A stretch of 38,594 nt of DNA, from the sequence record LN997803; one strand, given 5' to 3'. Shown piece by piece: positions 33,201 through 38,594 of this stretch; position 1 is the first letter of the stretch, and every line of letters starts with the position of its first letter. The position numbers were made by a program. Origin of the DNA: Escherichia phage phi467.

Positions 33201-36200
33201 CTCACCTTACCCTTGCAAGAGCCAGAGCCTTACGTGATGAATATCTCTCCTTTCTGGCAAATGGTGTTGATCCCCAAATCCATAACAACGATAAGGCGAA
33301 GGCATTAAAGAGTGCTACTGAGCACACTCTCCAAGCCGTAGCGCGGAAATGGTTAGATGAGAAGGTAAAGACATCAGGTATCTCACAAGACCATGCAGCA
33401 GACATCTGGCGCAGCTTAGAGAGAAATGTCTTTCCCGGTCTGGGTAATGTCCCTATCAATGAGATCCGACCTAAGCTCTTAAAACAACACCTTGATCCTA
33501 TTGAGCAACGAGGCGTATTGGAAACTCTACGCCGTATCATTTCACGTCTGAATGAAATCTTCCGGTGGGCAGCTACTGAAGAACTTATTGAGTTCAACCC
33601 GGCTGACAACCTTGGTCAAAGATTCAGTAAACCAAAAAAGCAAAATATGCCTGCCCTTCCCCCAAGCGAATTGCCAAGGTTTATGGAATCTTTGACGAAT
33701 GCGTCAATCCGGTTGGAAACACGTATGCTAATTGAATGGCAATTGTTGACATGGGTTCGTCCGGGTGAAGCCGTTCGCGCAAGGTGGTCTGATATTGATA
33801 CAACCAACAGCATTTGGAACATTCCTGCTGATTTCATGAAAATGAAAAAGCTTCACAAAGTTCCTTTGAGTAAAGAAGCTTTGCGCATCCTTGAATTAAT
33901 GAAATCAATAAGTGGGCATAGAGAATGGGTTTTCCCCAGCATAAAAGCGCCTCTTAATCATATGCATGAACAAACAGCCAACGCAGCTATCATCCGAATG
34001 GGGTTCGGAGGCGAGCTTGTAGCTCACGGTATGCGTTCTATTGCACGAACAGCGGCAGAGGAGTCTGGTAAATTCAGAGCTGAAGTTCTTGAGGCAGCGC
34101 TTGCCCACTCGAAAAAAGATGAAATTATCGCAGCATACAATCGTGCAGAATATCTGATAGAGCGACAGAGTTTGATGCAATGGTGGAGTGATTACGTTCA
34201 AGCTCAAAGATCAAATGCTCTGGTAGCCTAAGTATCAGAATAGCTAATATAATCCTGAAGGTAAAGAAAATGGAAACCCTATTCAAAGTTTTTGAAAAAT
34301 TTAGTTCCAGACCACTTTTTTTTATTTTTTTCGGACTCTCACTTTGTGAATTTTTTCAGAAACAATCTGTTCTGATGAATCCATCAGCAGATAACATCGC
34401 GAAATTATTCGCAGCCATGATATTAGTTGTTTTTTTTACTTGGGGATTTGAATGGCTAATCTTCAAGTTCAATGTAAACCTTGAACCTCATGATCAAGGC
34501 GATATTGGACCAACAATTGGAACGGCTACTTTAGCTGTATACTTAGTTTATGCCTTTCACTTTCTCAGTGAAAATCCTGAAGCATTAAATTTAAAGTTAT
34601 TAACTAACTCTGGCTTTATATACAGCACAACTCTATTATTATTCTCATTAGAATGCATGAAGCTTAGAAGACTTAAACAAAAATAAACAACATCATTGTG
34701 ATGATAAATATAAAATAGGCATGGCGAAAAAAAATCACCACGCCTAAAATATAATAATTATGGTAGCATCATTGATACATAATCCACACCAATCCTTGAG
34801 CTATACTGAGACGCTATAGCCTGATATCTTTCTGCATAACCAGTTCTCAGTTGAGATTTAAGTTTGAGTCGGACAGGAACATTTTGCACGTTGCCATCCA
34901 TATTACTTAAAAACACGGCAGAAATAATATTTTTTTCTTCGCCATCAACTGTTGTTCCATGATTCAACACCACCATATAATCAACAACAGGAAGCGTTTT
35001 ATCCCCTTCGAAAATAGAGAGATATTTTCTTTGATTTTTATGCATTACATATATATATTTCGAATGTTCAGCAAATGGCAATGCTTTACTCTGACTGGCG
35101 TTAAAAAGCTCCAGAACTTTAATGAGCCTGTGCGGACTTAATCTTACATGGTGAGGGTCGTTACCCTGAGTAGGAACCAAATCACATGCCGCAGATACAC
35201 ATAAATACCATTTGTTCGACTCTGTATCAAAGAAAATAGTGCCAGTAGAAATATGACCATCTTCAAAATTCTTTGAAGACAAATTCATATTTAAAGCATG
35301 ATACATTTCGTGATAAGTATCATTATTTGATGGCAGATCCATTTTTGAAGAGCAATATTGGAGCAATGCAGCAACTCCGCTGTTAGCGTATTCATTTGAA
35401 TAGCTATCAAAAACACTTTTGATAAATTCATCCAGCGTATTATTATTTTTAAGTCTTTGATAAAGCTCTTCTGATAAATTACCAAATACAAAGTCAATAT
35501 TTCTACATCTAATATCAGGCGAGTCTGATTTTAATATCTCATTTAACCACGCAGCTTGACCGTAATGATCGTTAGCCAAATGATTTACAAAAGATAAAGC
35601 CTCAGCTTCGATTGCATTCTGAATTTCAGATTTTATTAACTGATAATAAGATGGTTTCCATTCAATGAGAGAATCATTGAGAGTTTGCCAAATCCTATCT
35701 CCATCGTTTTCATGATCATCTTGAACCTTATGAAATAGGGAGACAAAGATATTACCACATTGAATCCATTTTACTCCGCTTTCATCACCCCGAATGACAT
35801 TGCCAGATGTGTTGCTAGAAATAATTGCATTTCTAGACACAGCATATTCTGCAATCATTTTTGCAATGAAGTTTTTATCCTTTTGATCCTCCAACACAGC
35901 ATCATCATGTATTAATCTTTTAATTCTTCTACAAGGCTTACTGTCTTTAATATAGGCTATTATTTCATCTCTTGTGAGAGCTTTATTACCATTATCATTT
36001 AAGTTCGGTAATACAACGTCTTCCCAATAACTTTGGACATCTTCATTATCGTAGTCAATGATCAAGCTGTTGATATCCAGAGCACCTTTGAGAGTCGATG
36101 ATATCTGCATCCAAACCGTTTCTAAATTCTCTCTAGTATATATTACAATCATATTTAAATGATCGGAGTCTTTCAAATCTTGTAATAGTTTAAGTGTTTT

Positions 36201-38594
36201 ATCAGGTGCATTATTATCAAGATGATAATCTACAATAATAAGATCTGATTTTCTAATCCGATCCACATCGAAATTAACAGAACCATTGTCAACATCACAA
36301 ATCATATTTTTAGATTGAAAAAAGCTCTCAAGAGTAGCGGCTCGTTTAGATGAGTCAATTTTGTTGTAGTCTAAATCAACTTCGTTATTCAACGCCCTGA
36401 TTGATTCAGAATACGTCAGAAAATCGTCATCAATCATGACAACGGAACGAATTGCATTTTCGCAGAAAGTTTTCTGGACAAGAGAATTATAATTTGCCAC
36501 TGTCATATTAGAACTCCACTCCATTGAACTGGATCACAAAATTAGCGCCATCTTTTATTAAATAGTTATCGCCTTCATCAGGTTCTGAATACCATATTTT
36601 ATGATGTGCAACAGCAAGGTTTTCTCGACATAGATACAGACCTACCCCATGTCCATTTGCTCTTTTGCTATAAAATAGTTCAAATAGTCGCGGGATATCA
36701 TCGGTATCAATTGCCGGACCAGAATTTGCTATGATAACCAAAGAATTCACAAAACCAATCTTTATGAGCCTATTATTTGACAGACTGACCCAATACATTG
36801 CATTGTTGATAATATTAGTAAAAACAGGATAGATCCTTAATGGTATATCTGTTATTGCGATTTGCTTAAACTCTTCACTAAATTCAATAGTTATTCGTTG
36901 CCGTTCGAAACGCTCCCCAAAGAACTTCAGGACATAATCCATGATATTTTTTCCAGTTATTCTCTGCCTGGATTGATAACCTGATATTTTCAAAGGTGAT
37001 AAGAAACGTATTTGTTGAGTAAGCGATCTGTGAGCATTTAACGCCAATGAAAAACCAGGGTGTTCTTTTACAGAAGTAGGAAGAGAGTTTAGTCCTCTGG
37101 TTACCATAGAATCCATTTCTTCAAGTTCATGAGATATTATCTCAACACTAATACCTAACTGTGCAAGCGCGTTTAAACTTTTAGCTTTTTCTTCAAAATA
37201 TGAGCGTTCTTCTTCAGATAATGAGAATGCTGAATCTAAGTTTATACCTTCAAATAATCTATCGAGACCTTTTATTATTGATTGATATTTGAAAGTTAGG
37301 GTATCAACTGACTCAACATATAAACTATCGAGCAAATTAAACACATTTTCAATTTGTGAATCATTATCTATTGAATCAACAACTGATATAGTTTTAGCAT
37401 AATAATCACTTCGATCAACCTTTATTTCATCGGCCCATTTTTTTAAAAGAGAATGTATCTTCTCCTCTATCGTGTTATTAAACTTAGTTAGTTTAGAATT
37501 AATAATACCTTGATTTTTTTCAAGGTGATTTTTCGCTGACAATGAAGGCTCAAGTTTATTTAATTCAGAATCAAGTTTATTAATTGCTAACTTCATTTGT
37601 AGAATATACGCAGAGAACTCATTAAATTTATCTCTGTAGTCTCTATATTTCTCTTCATACATTCCAAGTTTTGGAGGTTTGATAGGCGTTTTAATTTCAC
37701 TGCGCAACGCATCTAAGTTTGTAAGATCACTGTCTATAATTTTAAGATAGTTTAAATCTAACGAACCATCAGTTTTATCAAGCTTAGTTTTCAGCCTTTT
37801 AACAGCCTCCAAGGAAGCATCAAGAACTGGTGTCTGATTCTTCAAAGCTTCTGAAAAACTTTTTTGTGTTGATTTTCGAGCTTGTTGTTGAGCAGATTTT
37901 CTTAACTCTTTTTCACGCTTAACTTGTTCTAAAAGCTCTTTACGGTCATCAGAACGTGAACCAAAAAATCTATCAGCAAGTTCAGTTAACAAATTAGATA
38001 TAATAGTTTTCAGTTCTCTTGCAGCCTGGTTTCTTATGAATCCCTCTCTCCCCGACTTATCTTTCAGCTCTTTATTACTGGATTGAGTAATTCCAATATA
38101 ACCAAAAATCCTTCTATTAGACCAATAATATCGCCCTGCATTCCATGAACGTCTTTCTTCTATCTGGAAGAAATCATTATCTACTCGACCATAAGGTAAT
38201 ACTCTCAAGCTATCCCTAAAAATCATTAGTCCTGCATACTTTTTGGCCTTAAGATCAAAGTGGGAATGTTCACGTTCAGTATGTGATGTATTTTGTGAAA
38301 GGAATTCAAACGTTCCTATCTGAAGCTCAAATGGGCCGACCCCTGCGTGATCCTACCCACGTAATATGGACACAGGCCTAAGCGAGGTTCTTGTTTTCAA
38401 ATTGTTCCGGACTGAGGCCGCCACACCAACTGTGCCGCCGCCACCGATTGTAATCACATTCGATATAATTAAACACCGTTGCCCGCATTATTTCCCGGCT
38501 GATAAAGTGTTCTCCATGGATACATTCCACTTTCAGCGAATGAAAGAAGCTTTCCACGCAGGCATTATCGTAGCAGCAACCTTTTGCGCTCATA

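What the first reader, a model, noticed from the sequence alone, without database searches (positions are those of the whole stretch)
34758..38226. Candidate undescribed two-component-like module (kinase-like ATPase + receiver-like effector) in an integrase/IS-flanked AT-rich island
Two overlapping minus-strand genes form an operon in a strongly AT-rich island between a P4-type integrase and an IS3 end, a typical setting for defense cargo. The upstream product has histidine-kinase ATPase motifs at its C-terminus (N-box FTNIINNAMYW, G1-like IANSGPAID, G2 GHGVGLYL), an H-box-like ISHELEEMDSMV, and a long K/E-rich coiled-coil N-region with no obvious TM segment, so it looks like a cytoplasmic sensor. 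The downstream product starts with a receiver-like signature (VVMIDDD, DLIIVDYHLD, NMIVIYT) followed by ~400 aa I cannot assign to any family. This resembles defensive phosphorelays such as Detocs (kinase, Hpt, receiver-effector) but there is no separate Hpt gene and the effector is unrecognised. I propose it as a candidate anti-phage or abortive-infection phosphorelay.
Basis: partly seen in the sequence, partly recalled or inferred. Interest (0 to 1): 0.85.

Follow-up and report, generated by a model that had tools for sequence, protein, structure and literature searches.

The report
IS3-truncated remnant of methylase-linked kinase/receiver module
The two genes are real and do look like a kinase and its receiver partner, but the pair was described in 2021, and this E. 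coli copy is a leftover that an insertion sequence cut off from its DNA methylase and from the front third of the kinase, so it is probably no longer a working system.

Summary

1. The pair is not undescribed. Bellieny-Rabelo et al. 2021 (PMC8011034) defined both Pfam families from this gene pair.
2. The kinase gene here is a fragment. Relatives with 99% identical products are 988 aa, with an N-terminal MORC-like GHKL ATPase. They sit in a tightly packed operon: C5 DNA methylase, kinase, receiver protein.
3. Homology to that intact island stops at the IS3 end (window 38348). About 375 codons and the methylase are gone. IS3 has no target duplication, which indicates a deletion.
4. None of 5,426 complete E. 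coli genomes carries the missing part at megablast sensitivity; 560 carry the remnant, and several copies have frameshifts or stops.
5. In 29 of 29 related loci a full-length kinase directly precedes the receiver gene, and 27 of 29 have a C5 methylase nearby.

The parts
33002..34231 (+). P4-type tyrosine integrase of the island (RefSeq start; the longest ORF starts at 32960)
   Evidence: Pfam Arm-DNA-bind_3 2.2e-22, Phage_int_M 2.7e-23, Phage_integrase 1.9e-19. In E. coli W and in the intact island L003 this gene lies next to ssrA/smpB. Homology to L003 begins at window 32816.
34270..34686 (+). 138-aa hydrophobic protein, island cargo of unknown role, convergent with the operon
   Evidence: ORF. 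Conserved (81-100%) next to the receiver gene only in close Enterobacterales relatives (L003, L006-L008, L047), not in distant loci. No family hit.
34716..34746 (-). Terminator-like hairpin (12-bp stem plus T run) just downstream of the receiver gene stop
   Evidence: Consensus scan.
34758..36506 (-). Receiver-domain protein gene (582 aa; Response_reg_2 family), apparently intact in this window
   Evidence: AF2 model pLDDT 93.6, pTM 0.89. 520 representative relatives, homologous over the full length.
35721..36452 (-). REC fold. Acidic pair D26/D27 (codons 36426-36431), phospho-acceptor D93 (36228-36230), T124 (36135-36137), K260 (35727-35729). A roughly 110-aa helical insertion lies between T124 and K260.
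34761..35720 (-). Output region of unknown function: helical bundle (aa about 268-410), beta-rich domain with a terminal helix (aa about 411-569), and a conserved tail GR(I/V)GVD. Invariant P285, N406, G422, C441, R571.
36508..38226 (-). Annotated 572-aa 'ATP-binding protein': the 3' 58% of a 988-aa kinase-like gene, read from an internal ATG
   Evidence: 99% identical to residues 417-988 of P0036.
36985..37161 (-). HEF_HK dimerisation/phosphotransfer helix pair. Candidate phospho-His is H366 (H782 of the full protein), codon 37129-37131.
   Evidence: Pfam PF19191, 26.1 bits. The His is invariant in 29 kinases from related loci. Codon.
36568..36843 (-). C-terminal HATPase_c catalytic domain (N box 36790-36822, G1-like 36706-36732, G2 36631-36654)
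   Evidence: Pfam PF02518, 1.9e-11. PDB sequence hits to sensor-kinase catalytic domains 3a0t/3a0r, using the full-length protein. Motif coordinates.
38227..38347 (-). Leftover in-frame kinase coding sequence (about codons 376-416 of the parent gene), with no start codon of its own in the parent frame
   Evidence: One mismatch in these 121 nt against L003 11128-11248. blastn homology ends at the IS3 junction.
38348..38594 (-). Right end of IS3: terminal inverted repeat TGATCCTACCCACGTAATATGG..., and the transposase C-terminus at 38378-38593. This is the deletion junction.
   Evidence: In E. coli W the 1258-bp IS3 is flanked by GCG and AGA, so there is no target duplication. Its far side is a truncated amylase-like pseudogene.

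Best explanation
The locus is the 3' remnant of a three-gene mobile module: C5 cytosine DNA methylase, then a soluble kinase-like protein, then a receiver-domain protein. The kinase-like protein has an N-terminal MORC/MutL-type GHKL ATPase, a coiled coil, a HEF_HK His helix pair and a HATPase_c domain. The receiver protein has a REC domain with an insertion, followed by a roughly 320-aa output region of unknown fold family.

The module rode into the ssrA site on an integrase/relaxase island. In an ancestor of an E. coli lineage (O26, O103, O111, W and others), an IS3-associated deletion removed the rest of the island, the methylase, the operon's 5' region and the first ~375 codons of the kinase gene. 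What remains is a headless kinase ORF read from an internal ATG, plus an intact receiver gene. These are most likely inert and drifting.

How the intact parent most likely works (inferred, not shown): the methylase marks host DNA with 5-methylcytosine. The GHKL head acts as an ATP-driven DNA clamp and reports unmodified incoming DNA through the coiled coil. The kinase core then phosphorylates H782 and passes the phosphate to D93 of the receiver protein. The receiver's output region carries out restriction or growth arrest.

Shown here: the domain content, the truncation, the deletion junction and the conserved triad.
Inferred: phosphotransfer, sensing of methylation state, and the activity of the output region.

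The confidence of 0.8 is for the identity of the locus as a truncated remnant of the described triad. For the proposed mechanism of the parent system I would give about 0.35.
For: Truncation:
- Relatives whose kinase product is 99% identical over the retained part are 988 aa, with PF13589 at aa 28-137.
- Window 32816-38348 aligns to the intact island L003 at 98.9%. The alignment stops at the IS3 end.
- IS3 has no target duplication.
- The missing 3.1 kb is absent from all 5,426 complete E. coli genomes at megablast sensitivity, while 560 carry the remnant.

Operon:
- In L003 the methylase and kinase genes overlap by 20 nt, and the kinase and receiver genes are 1 nt apart.

Conservation across phyla:
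- 29 of 29 loci have a full-length kinase (842-1101 aa) directly upstream of the receiver gene on the same strand.
- 27 of 29 have a C5 methylase.
- 11 of 29 have a Vsr-like gene (recognised by its FVHGCFWH motif).
- No other gene recurs, and no separate restriction enzyme is found.
- GHKL motifs, the H-box His and the REC residues are invariant or nearly so.

Mobile context:
- A relaxase island at ssrA.
- An integrative conjugative element in other E. coli.
- Defence-type neighbours: DarTG, an HNH/ScoMcrA-type gene, NACHT and KAP NTPases.

Decay of the remnant:
- RefSeq flags frameshifts or stops in strains VE-T2, YZMc10-2, PM7 and C7.
- Among 8 E. coli copies there are 4 synonymous changes, 8 nonsynonymous, 1 stop and frameshifting indels. 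One change is N118K at a family-invariant residue.

Prior description: PMC8011034.
Against: - Both ORFs are intact in most of the 560 genomes.
- The kinase core (His helix pair plus catalytic domain) and all REC residues survive, so residual phosphotransfer cannot be excluded.
- The receiver gene differs from the intact orthologue by 12 synonymous and only 2 nonsynonymous changes. Much of that may predate the deletion.
- The polymorphism sample is small and was drawn from the most divergent copies. Some frameshifts in AT-rich homopolymers could be assembly errors.
- No nuclease or other catalytic fold was found in the output region, so the 'restriction' step of the parent model has no biochemical support.
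- No experiment on any member was found.
Confidence: 0.8

Rival explanations
1. The truncated pair is still a working, self-contained two-component module. A kinase that has lost its sensor head would be constitutively active and would keep the receiver-effector phosphorylated. The pair would have been retained in E. coli for defence or another benefit.
For: - The His helix pair, the catalytic domain and all REC residues are intact.
- The ORFs are open in most of the 560 genomes.
- The receiver gene has pN/pS 0.04 against the intact orthologue.
Against: - The operon's 5' region upstream of the methylase is gone, and no promoter-like site lies between IS3 and the ORF.
- Several lineages carry frameshifts, a stop or secondary IS insertions.
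- Within E. coli the ratio of nonsynonymous to synonymous changes is about 9:4, near neutral.
- No independent recurrence of the short form: the '572-aa' calls in Salmonella are start-site misannotations of an open 994-aa frame.
- In 29 of 29 related loci the kinase keeps its GHKL head.
Confidence: 0.12
2. The parent triad is not a restriction system. It would be a signalling pair that regulates the methylase or a neighbouring R-M system, giving epigenetic or expression control. This is what the 2021 paper suggested.
For: - The authors' proposal.
- Tight linkage to the methylase.
- No recognisable nuclease in either protein.
Against: - The receiver protein has no recognisable DNA-binding output.
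- Its fixed 320-aa output occurs only in this architecture.
- No separate restriction enzyme is conserved nearby for it to regulate.
- A MORC-type ATPase head is typical of R-M machinery rather than of regulators (PMC2292703).
Confidence: 0.2
3. It is a Detocs-type abortive-infection phosphorelay.
For: The general logic is shared: a soluble kinase plus a REC-fused non-transcriptional output on a mobile island.
Against: - Detection of Detocs requires DtcA, DtcB and DtcC. There is no lone-receiver gene here.
- No TPR sensor and no PNP domain were found, and there is no PADLOC hit for either protein, truncated or intact.
- Methylase linkage is not described for Detocs in the passages read.
Confidence: 0.03
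4. It is an ordinary housekeeping two-component system controlling transcription.
For: NCBIfam gives weak partial hits of the catalytic domain to AtoS, PhoR and similar kinases.
Against: - All those hits are far below their cut-offs and cover only the ATPase domain.
- The pair is present in only about 10% of complete E. coli genomes, inside an AT-rich integrase island.
- No DNA-binding output was detected.
Confidence: 0.02

Closest known systems
HEF_HK / Response_reg_2 'two-component-like' pair (Pfam PF19191 + PF19192; Bellieny-Rabelo, Pretorius & Moleleki 2021, PMC8011034)
   Same: It is this family. Both Pfam models hit above their cut-offs. The genes are adjacent. The kinase-like protein is soluble. 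Relatives are linked to C5 methylases, as the paper reports (91.6% kinase-receiver linkage; methylases frequent upstream).
   Different: This copy lacks the N-terminal HATPase_c_3 head, which 83.4% of the family has, and it lacks the methylase. Both were lost in an IS3-associated deletion.
MORC/paraMORC GHKL+S5 ATPases of restriction-modification operons (Iyer, Abhiman & Aravind 2008, PMC2292703)
   Same: The parent kinase has an N-terminal GHKL domain (PF13589) with conserved Bergerat-fold motifs. It sits in an operon with a cytosine methylase and often a Vsr-like gene.
   Different: The parent adds a His-kinase core at the C-terminus and pairs with a receiver protein, instead of a helicase or a recognisable nuclease. 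None of that head survives in the window.
Detocs (DtcA/DtcB/DtcC; Rousset et al., bioRxiv 10.1101/2023.01.24.525353)
   Same: Both use His-Asp phosphotransfer to drive a non-transcriptional output in a mobile or defence context.
   Different: No lone-receiver buffer gene, no TPR sensor, no PNP effector and no profile match were found. The parent system is tied to a DNA methylase.
Classical HisKA/HATPase_c sensor kinases with CheY-like receivers
   Different: The G1 box is atypical. The REC carries a roughly 110-aa helical insertion before strand 5. The output is not a known DNA-binding or enzymatic domain.
CcdB/MazF/Kid toxin fold
   Different: Foldseek finds nothing (best E 0.11) and there is no sequence or profile signal. 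MazF/Kid catalytic residues could not be mapped. This is a lead only.

Membership tests
HEF_HK / Response_reg_2 pair (PF19191/PF19192) | Kinase-like protein with a HEF_HK helix pair carrying the conserved His | tested here: met
   PF19191, 26.1 bits against a cut-off of 24.1, aa 356-414. H366 aligns with a His invariant in 29 relatives.
HEF_HK / Response_reg_2 pair (PF19191/PF19192) | C-terminal HATPase_c domain next to the His helix pair | tested here: met
   PF02518, E 1.9e-11, aa 462-553.
HEF_HK / Response_reg_2 pair (PF19191/PF19192) | Adjacent gene encoding a Response_reg_2 protein | tested here: met
   PF19192, E 3.7e-31. The start codon lies 1 nt after the kinase stop.
HEF_HK / Response_reg_2 pair (PF19191/PF19192) | N-terminal HATPase_c_3 (MORC-like) domain on the kinase (83.4% of the family according to PMC8011034) | tested here: not met
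   Absent from the 572-aa product. Present at aa 28-137 of the 988-aa L003 protein, whose C-terminal part is 99% identical. The coding sequence was deleted at the IS3 junction.
HEF_HK / Response_reg_2 pair (PF19191/PF19192) | Linked C5 cytosine DNA methylase (frequent, not obligatory) | tested here: not met
   No ORF in 30000-38594 is a C5 methylase. The L003 methylase region has no megablast match in 5,426 complete E. coli genomes. Present in 27 of 29 related loci.
Detocs | Three genes: DtcA kinase, DtcB lone receiver, DtcC receiver-effector (all three required for detection) | tested here: not met
   Only two genes are present, with no lone-receiver ORF. Definition taken.
Detocs | Profile similarity to the DtcA and DtcC families (DtcC usually has a PNP effector) | tested here: not met
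   No PADLOC v2.0.0 hit for the kinase or receiver proteins, truncated or intact. No PNP domain in Pfam. Whether PADLOC v2.0.0 includes Detocs models was not checked directly.
Classical two-component system | Conserved phospho-His and REC acceptor residues | tested here: met
   H366; D26, D27, D93, T124, K260.
Classical two-component system | Actual autophosphorylation and His-to-Asp transfer | not testable with these tools
   Needs biochemistry, for example Phos-tag gels or labelled ATP.
Classical two-component system | Recognisable output domain (DNA-binding or a known enzyme) | tested here: not met
   No Pfam family on aa 262-582 in any of 28 members. No PDB sequence hit.
Restriction-modification system (parent triad) | Cognate methyltransferase | tested here: not met
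   Not present in this window. In L003 the adjacent gene hits PF00145 at 6.6e-59 and PADLOC Type II MTase at 6.7e-80.
Restriction-modification system (parent triad) | Endonuclease that cuts unmodified DNA | tested here: inconclusive
   No nuclease fold was recognised in the kinase or receiver proteins. No other conserved neighbour exists. Activity has not been tested.
CcdB/MazF toxin superfamily (output domain) | Shared fold, supported by independent methods | tested here: inconclusive

The most novel reading that the evidence does not exclude
The intact parent of this remnant (C5 methylase + MORC-headed histidine kinase + receiver protein) would be a new kind of restriction-modification-type immune system. 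In it, recognition of unmodified DNA by a MORC-like clamp would be turned into a His-Asp phosphotransfer. That would switch on a receiver-fused effector of a previously unseen fold, possibly related to CcdB/MazF toxins. The copy in about 10% of E. coli genomes would be its fossil. None of this has been tested experimentally in the literature I could search.
Probability: 0.3. Interest if true: 0.7.

Novelty: already known. Interest (0 to 1): 0.3.

Why it matters
For this window it matters mostly as a correction. The locus is a described gene pair, and it is a truncated, probably inert copy, so cloning this E. coli pair for phage challenge would most likely give a negative and misleading result.

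It also shows that the abundant 572-aa E. coli fragment may be distorting annotation. At least one intact Salmonella orthologue is called at 572 aa although its full 994-aa frame is open.

The parent triad deserves an experiment. It is widespread across phyla and always keeps the same three parts. It rides on mobile elements, it was not matched by the 2023 PADLOC models, and it has an output domain with no known relative. It could connect MORC-type ATPases, DNA methylation and two-component signalling in a single immune mechanism.

Tried and rejected
- MADS, the 8-gene methylation-associated defence system: read the preprint. It has a different gene content (kinase, specificity subunit, methylase and five other genes) and no receiver protein is mentioned. 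Not pursued.
- DefensePredictor (Science 2026): a figure legend mentions an unvalidated HATPase + REC predicted system, but it cannot be identified as this one from the held text.
- PADLOC, NCBIfam and PHROGs. There were no informative hits for the kinase or receiver proteins. NCBIfam gave only sub-threshold partial kinase hits. The PHROG families are of unknown function, and one is itself 572 aa long, matching the truncated form.
- PDB sequence and profile searches of the receiver protein and of its C-terminal region: nothing.
- Pfam on 28 C-terminal regions at E up to 5: only scattered noise.
- Longer family members were checked for extra domains: none.
- The C-terminal profile against 5.8 billion proteins: every hit is the same architecture.
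- A tmRNA or att site in the window: ARAGORN and Rfam found only two prophage tRNAs.
- Independent truncations to 572 aa in other genera, which would have argued for a selected short form. The Salmonella case is a start-site misannotation. Look-ups for the Pectobacterium and Yersinia cases returned nothing.
- The first genome-contig scan with the 85-sequence alignment failed for lack of a conserved stretch. It was redone with 18 sequences.
- Searches for papers citing the 2021 study or using 'paraMORC' found no experimental follow-up.

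
Full report
**What is in the window.** Two long minus-strand ORFs occupy 34758-38226: 36508-38226 (572 aa) and 34758-36524 (588 aa from the first ATG). 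RefSeq annotates the same genes in E. coli O26:H11 11368 as 'ATP-binding protein' and 'response regulator receiver domain'. It starts the second gene at 36506 (582 aa). The kinase-like gene ends with TAA at 36508-36510, and the receiver gene's ATG follows after one base, with a GGAG 12 nt upstream. A terminator-like hairpin follows the receiver gene. GC is 0.32-0.365 over this stretch, against roughly 0.50-0.55 for most of the window. To the left are a 138-aa hydrophobic protein and a P4-type integrase. To the right is the end of IS3.

**The pair is already described.** Both Pfam families come from Bellieny-Rabelo, Pretorius and Moleleki (Genome Biol Evol 2021, PMC8011034). That study defined them from this gene pair. 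It reported 91.6% linkage over 644 regions. It noted frequent upstream C5 DNA methylases and an N-terminal HATPase_c_3 domain in 83.4% of the kinase-like proteins, and it related them to paraMORC ATPases. It used an E. coli member as an example. I found no experimental follow-up in the searchable literature.

**The kinase gene here is a fragment.** Protein search shows that relatives with 99% identical products in Serratia, Klebsiella and Salmonella are 988 aa long and carry PF13589 as well. One such locus (L003) has, next to smpB and the same integrase and 138-aa gene, the following operon:
- a C5 DNA methylase (402 aa, PF00145, 6.6e-59);
- the kinase (988 aa: HATPase_c_3 at 28-137, HEF_HK at 772-830, HATPase_c at 878-969);
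- the receiver protein (582 aa).

In L003 the methylase and kinase genes overlap by 20 nt. Further along the island are a NikA-like gene, a relaxase and more integrases.

Window 32816-38348 aligns to L003 at 98.9% identity, and the alignment stops at the IS3 terminal repeat. About 375 codons of the kinase, including the whole GHKL head, are missing, together with the methylase and the operon's 5' region. The annotated 572-aa product simply starts at the first internal ATG.

In E. coli W the island sits directly after ssrA, and IS3 is followed by a truncated amylase-like pseudogene and glaH. The 1258-bp IS3 is flanked by GCG on one side and AGA on the other, so there is no target duplication. 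The junction was therefore made by an IS3-associated deletion or recombination, not by a simple insertion.

The deleted 3.1 kb has no megablast match in any of 5,426 complete E. coli genomes. The remnant is present in 560 of them, always chromosomal. Other E. coli strains carry a diverged (72%) but intact triad on an integrative conjugative element.

**The triad is the conserved unit.** A scan of one genome per species found 31 loci. They come from Gamma- and Alphaproteobacteria, Planctomycetes, Gemmatimonadetes, Acidobacteria, Myxococcota and a Desulfotalea. I analysed them by tblastn and ORF clustering. Counting L003, 29 loci were informative:
- In 29 of 29, a full-length kinase (842-1101 aa) with the GHKL head lies directly upstream of the receiver gene on the same strand.
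- In 27 of 29, a C5 methylase is present, usually directly upstream of the kinase and sometimes convergent downstream.
- In 11 of 29, a Vsr-like gene is present (recognised by its FVHGCFWH motif).
- Nothing else recurs, and there is no separate restriction enzyme.

One of the two exceptions without a methylase is cut by a contig end. PADLOC v2.0.0 recognises the methylase as a Type II methyltransferase but has no model for the other two proteins.

**The output region.** Residues 262-582 form a helical bundle, a beta-rich domain with a terminal helix, and a conserved tail. P285, N406, G422, C441 and R571 are invariant. The searches gave:
- no Pfam family in any of 28 members;
- no PDB sequence or profile hit;
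- only proteins of the same architecture when the C-terminal profile was searched.

**State of the remnant.**
- Against the intact orthologue, the receiver gene differs by 12 synonymous and 2 nonsynonymous changes. The kinase remnant differs by 3 synonymous and 6 nonsynonymous changes.
- Among eight E. coli copies there are 4 synonymous and 8 nonsynonymous substitutions, one premature stop, one in-frame insertion and frameshifting indels. One substitution, N118K, hits a residue invariant in the 18-sequence alignment. These copies were drawn largely from the most divergent tail, so the sample is small and biased.
- RefSeq marks one or both genes as pseudogenes in VE-T2, YZMc10-2, PM7 and C7. 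Other strains carry secondary IS insertions.
- No promoter-like site lies between IS3 and the ORF.

Taken together this points to relaxed constraint. Some frameshifts could be assembly errors.

The '572-aa' proteins annotated in Salmonella are not independent truncations. In L047 the full 994-aa frame is open, and the short call is a start-site error.

**Mechanism.** Shown: the domain architecture, the deletion and the conserved triad. Inferred for the parent system:
1. The methylase marks self DNA. The frequent presence of a Vsr-like gene argues that the methylase is active on the host genome.
2. The MORC/MutL-like head binds DNA in an ATP-dependent way and distinguishes unmodified DNA, as proposed for paraMORCs in R-M operons (PMC2292703).
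3. The kinase core phosphorylates H782 and transfers the phosphate to D93.
4. The receiver's output region then restricts the invader or arrests the cell.

The main alternative for the parent is the 2021 authors' idea that the pair regulates methylation or a neighbouring R-M system. For the window itself, the main alternative is that the headless kinase still signals. I rate that at about 0.12.

**Comparison with Detocs.** Detocs consists of a TPR-kinase (DtcA), a lone receiver 'buffer' (DtcB) and a REC-PNP effector (DtcC), and all three are required for detection. This locus has no third gene, no TPR or PNP domain was found, and there is no profile match. It shares only the general idea of a defensive phosphotransfer.

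**Verdict.** The feature is a truncated copy of an already described, functionally untested family. Interest for this window is low (0.3). The intact parent triad remains a worthwhile experimental target.

Noticed in passing
window 1-31314: Most of the window is a lambdoid prophage (tail, portal, capsid, terminase, lysis genes, yfdP-R, integrase at the right end) lying beside the island. Only 29475-38594 matches O26:H11 11368 (98%). The window therefore comes from another strain with a different prophage at this site.
   Followed up: partly
window 30113-31314: The prophage integrase is split into two ORFs (160 aa and 202 aa), whereas strain 11368 has a single 391-aa CDS. This looks like a frameshifted integrase, so the prophage may be locked in place.
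   Followed up: partly
window 15051-15204: Two prophage-borne tRNA genes (Gly-TCC and Thr-TGT) on the minus strand. Strain 11368 carries Arg, Arg and Ile tRNAs at the equivalent place.
   Followed up: no
window 31764-32705: A DUF4760 membrane protein (Pfam 8.2e-16) sits alone between the prophage integrase and the island integrase, a typical position for prophage accessory or defence cargo. The only other signal is a weak, probably spurious PADLOC hit (DrmMII, 0.0026).
   Followed up: no
window 34270-34686: A 138-aa hydrophobic protein convergent with the operon. It is conserved with the island only in close Enterobacterales relatives, has no family assignment, and is not part of the widely conserved triad.
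   Followed up: partly
L047 4013-5264 (Salmonella enterica GCA_009468465.1): The intact Salmonella orthologue is annotated as 572 aa although the upstream 1.25 kb is an open, homologous reading frame (full length 994 aa). The abundant truncated E. coli protein may be steering start-site choice in automated annotation. Similar 572-aa records exist for Pectobacterium, Klebsiella, Yersinia ruckeri and Morganella.
   Followed up: partly
L006 (DYWT01000267.1, 'Sporosarcina psychrophila' MAG): A 7.5-kb contig that encodes a receiver protein 100% identical to the window's and the same kinase remnant. It is almost certainly E. coli sequence mis-binned into a Firmicute MAG.
   Followed up: no
L046 1-980 (E. 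coli C7, NZ_CP010240.1): In strain C7 a DarT/NADAR (DarTG) toxin-antitoxin defence pair lies just outside the degraded island integrase. IS3 is gone there, and the kinase remnant is further broken into two pseudogene pieces.
   Followed up: no
L047 9775-10650; L036 1696-4626; L025 3451-5757: Neighbours of intact triads include an HNH/ScoMcrA-type putative modification-dependent nuclease, a NACHT-pentapeptide protein and a KAP-family NTPase. These are typical defence-island company.
   Followed up: no
L003 8098-8721 and L008 28-645: A 207-aa protein with no family hit lies directly upstream of the methylase on the same strand in the closest intact islands (73% identity between the two). It could be a fourth operon member in Enterobacterales. 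It is absent from distant loci.
   Followed up: no
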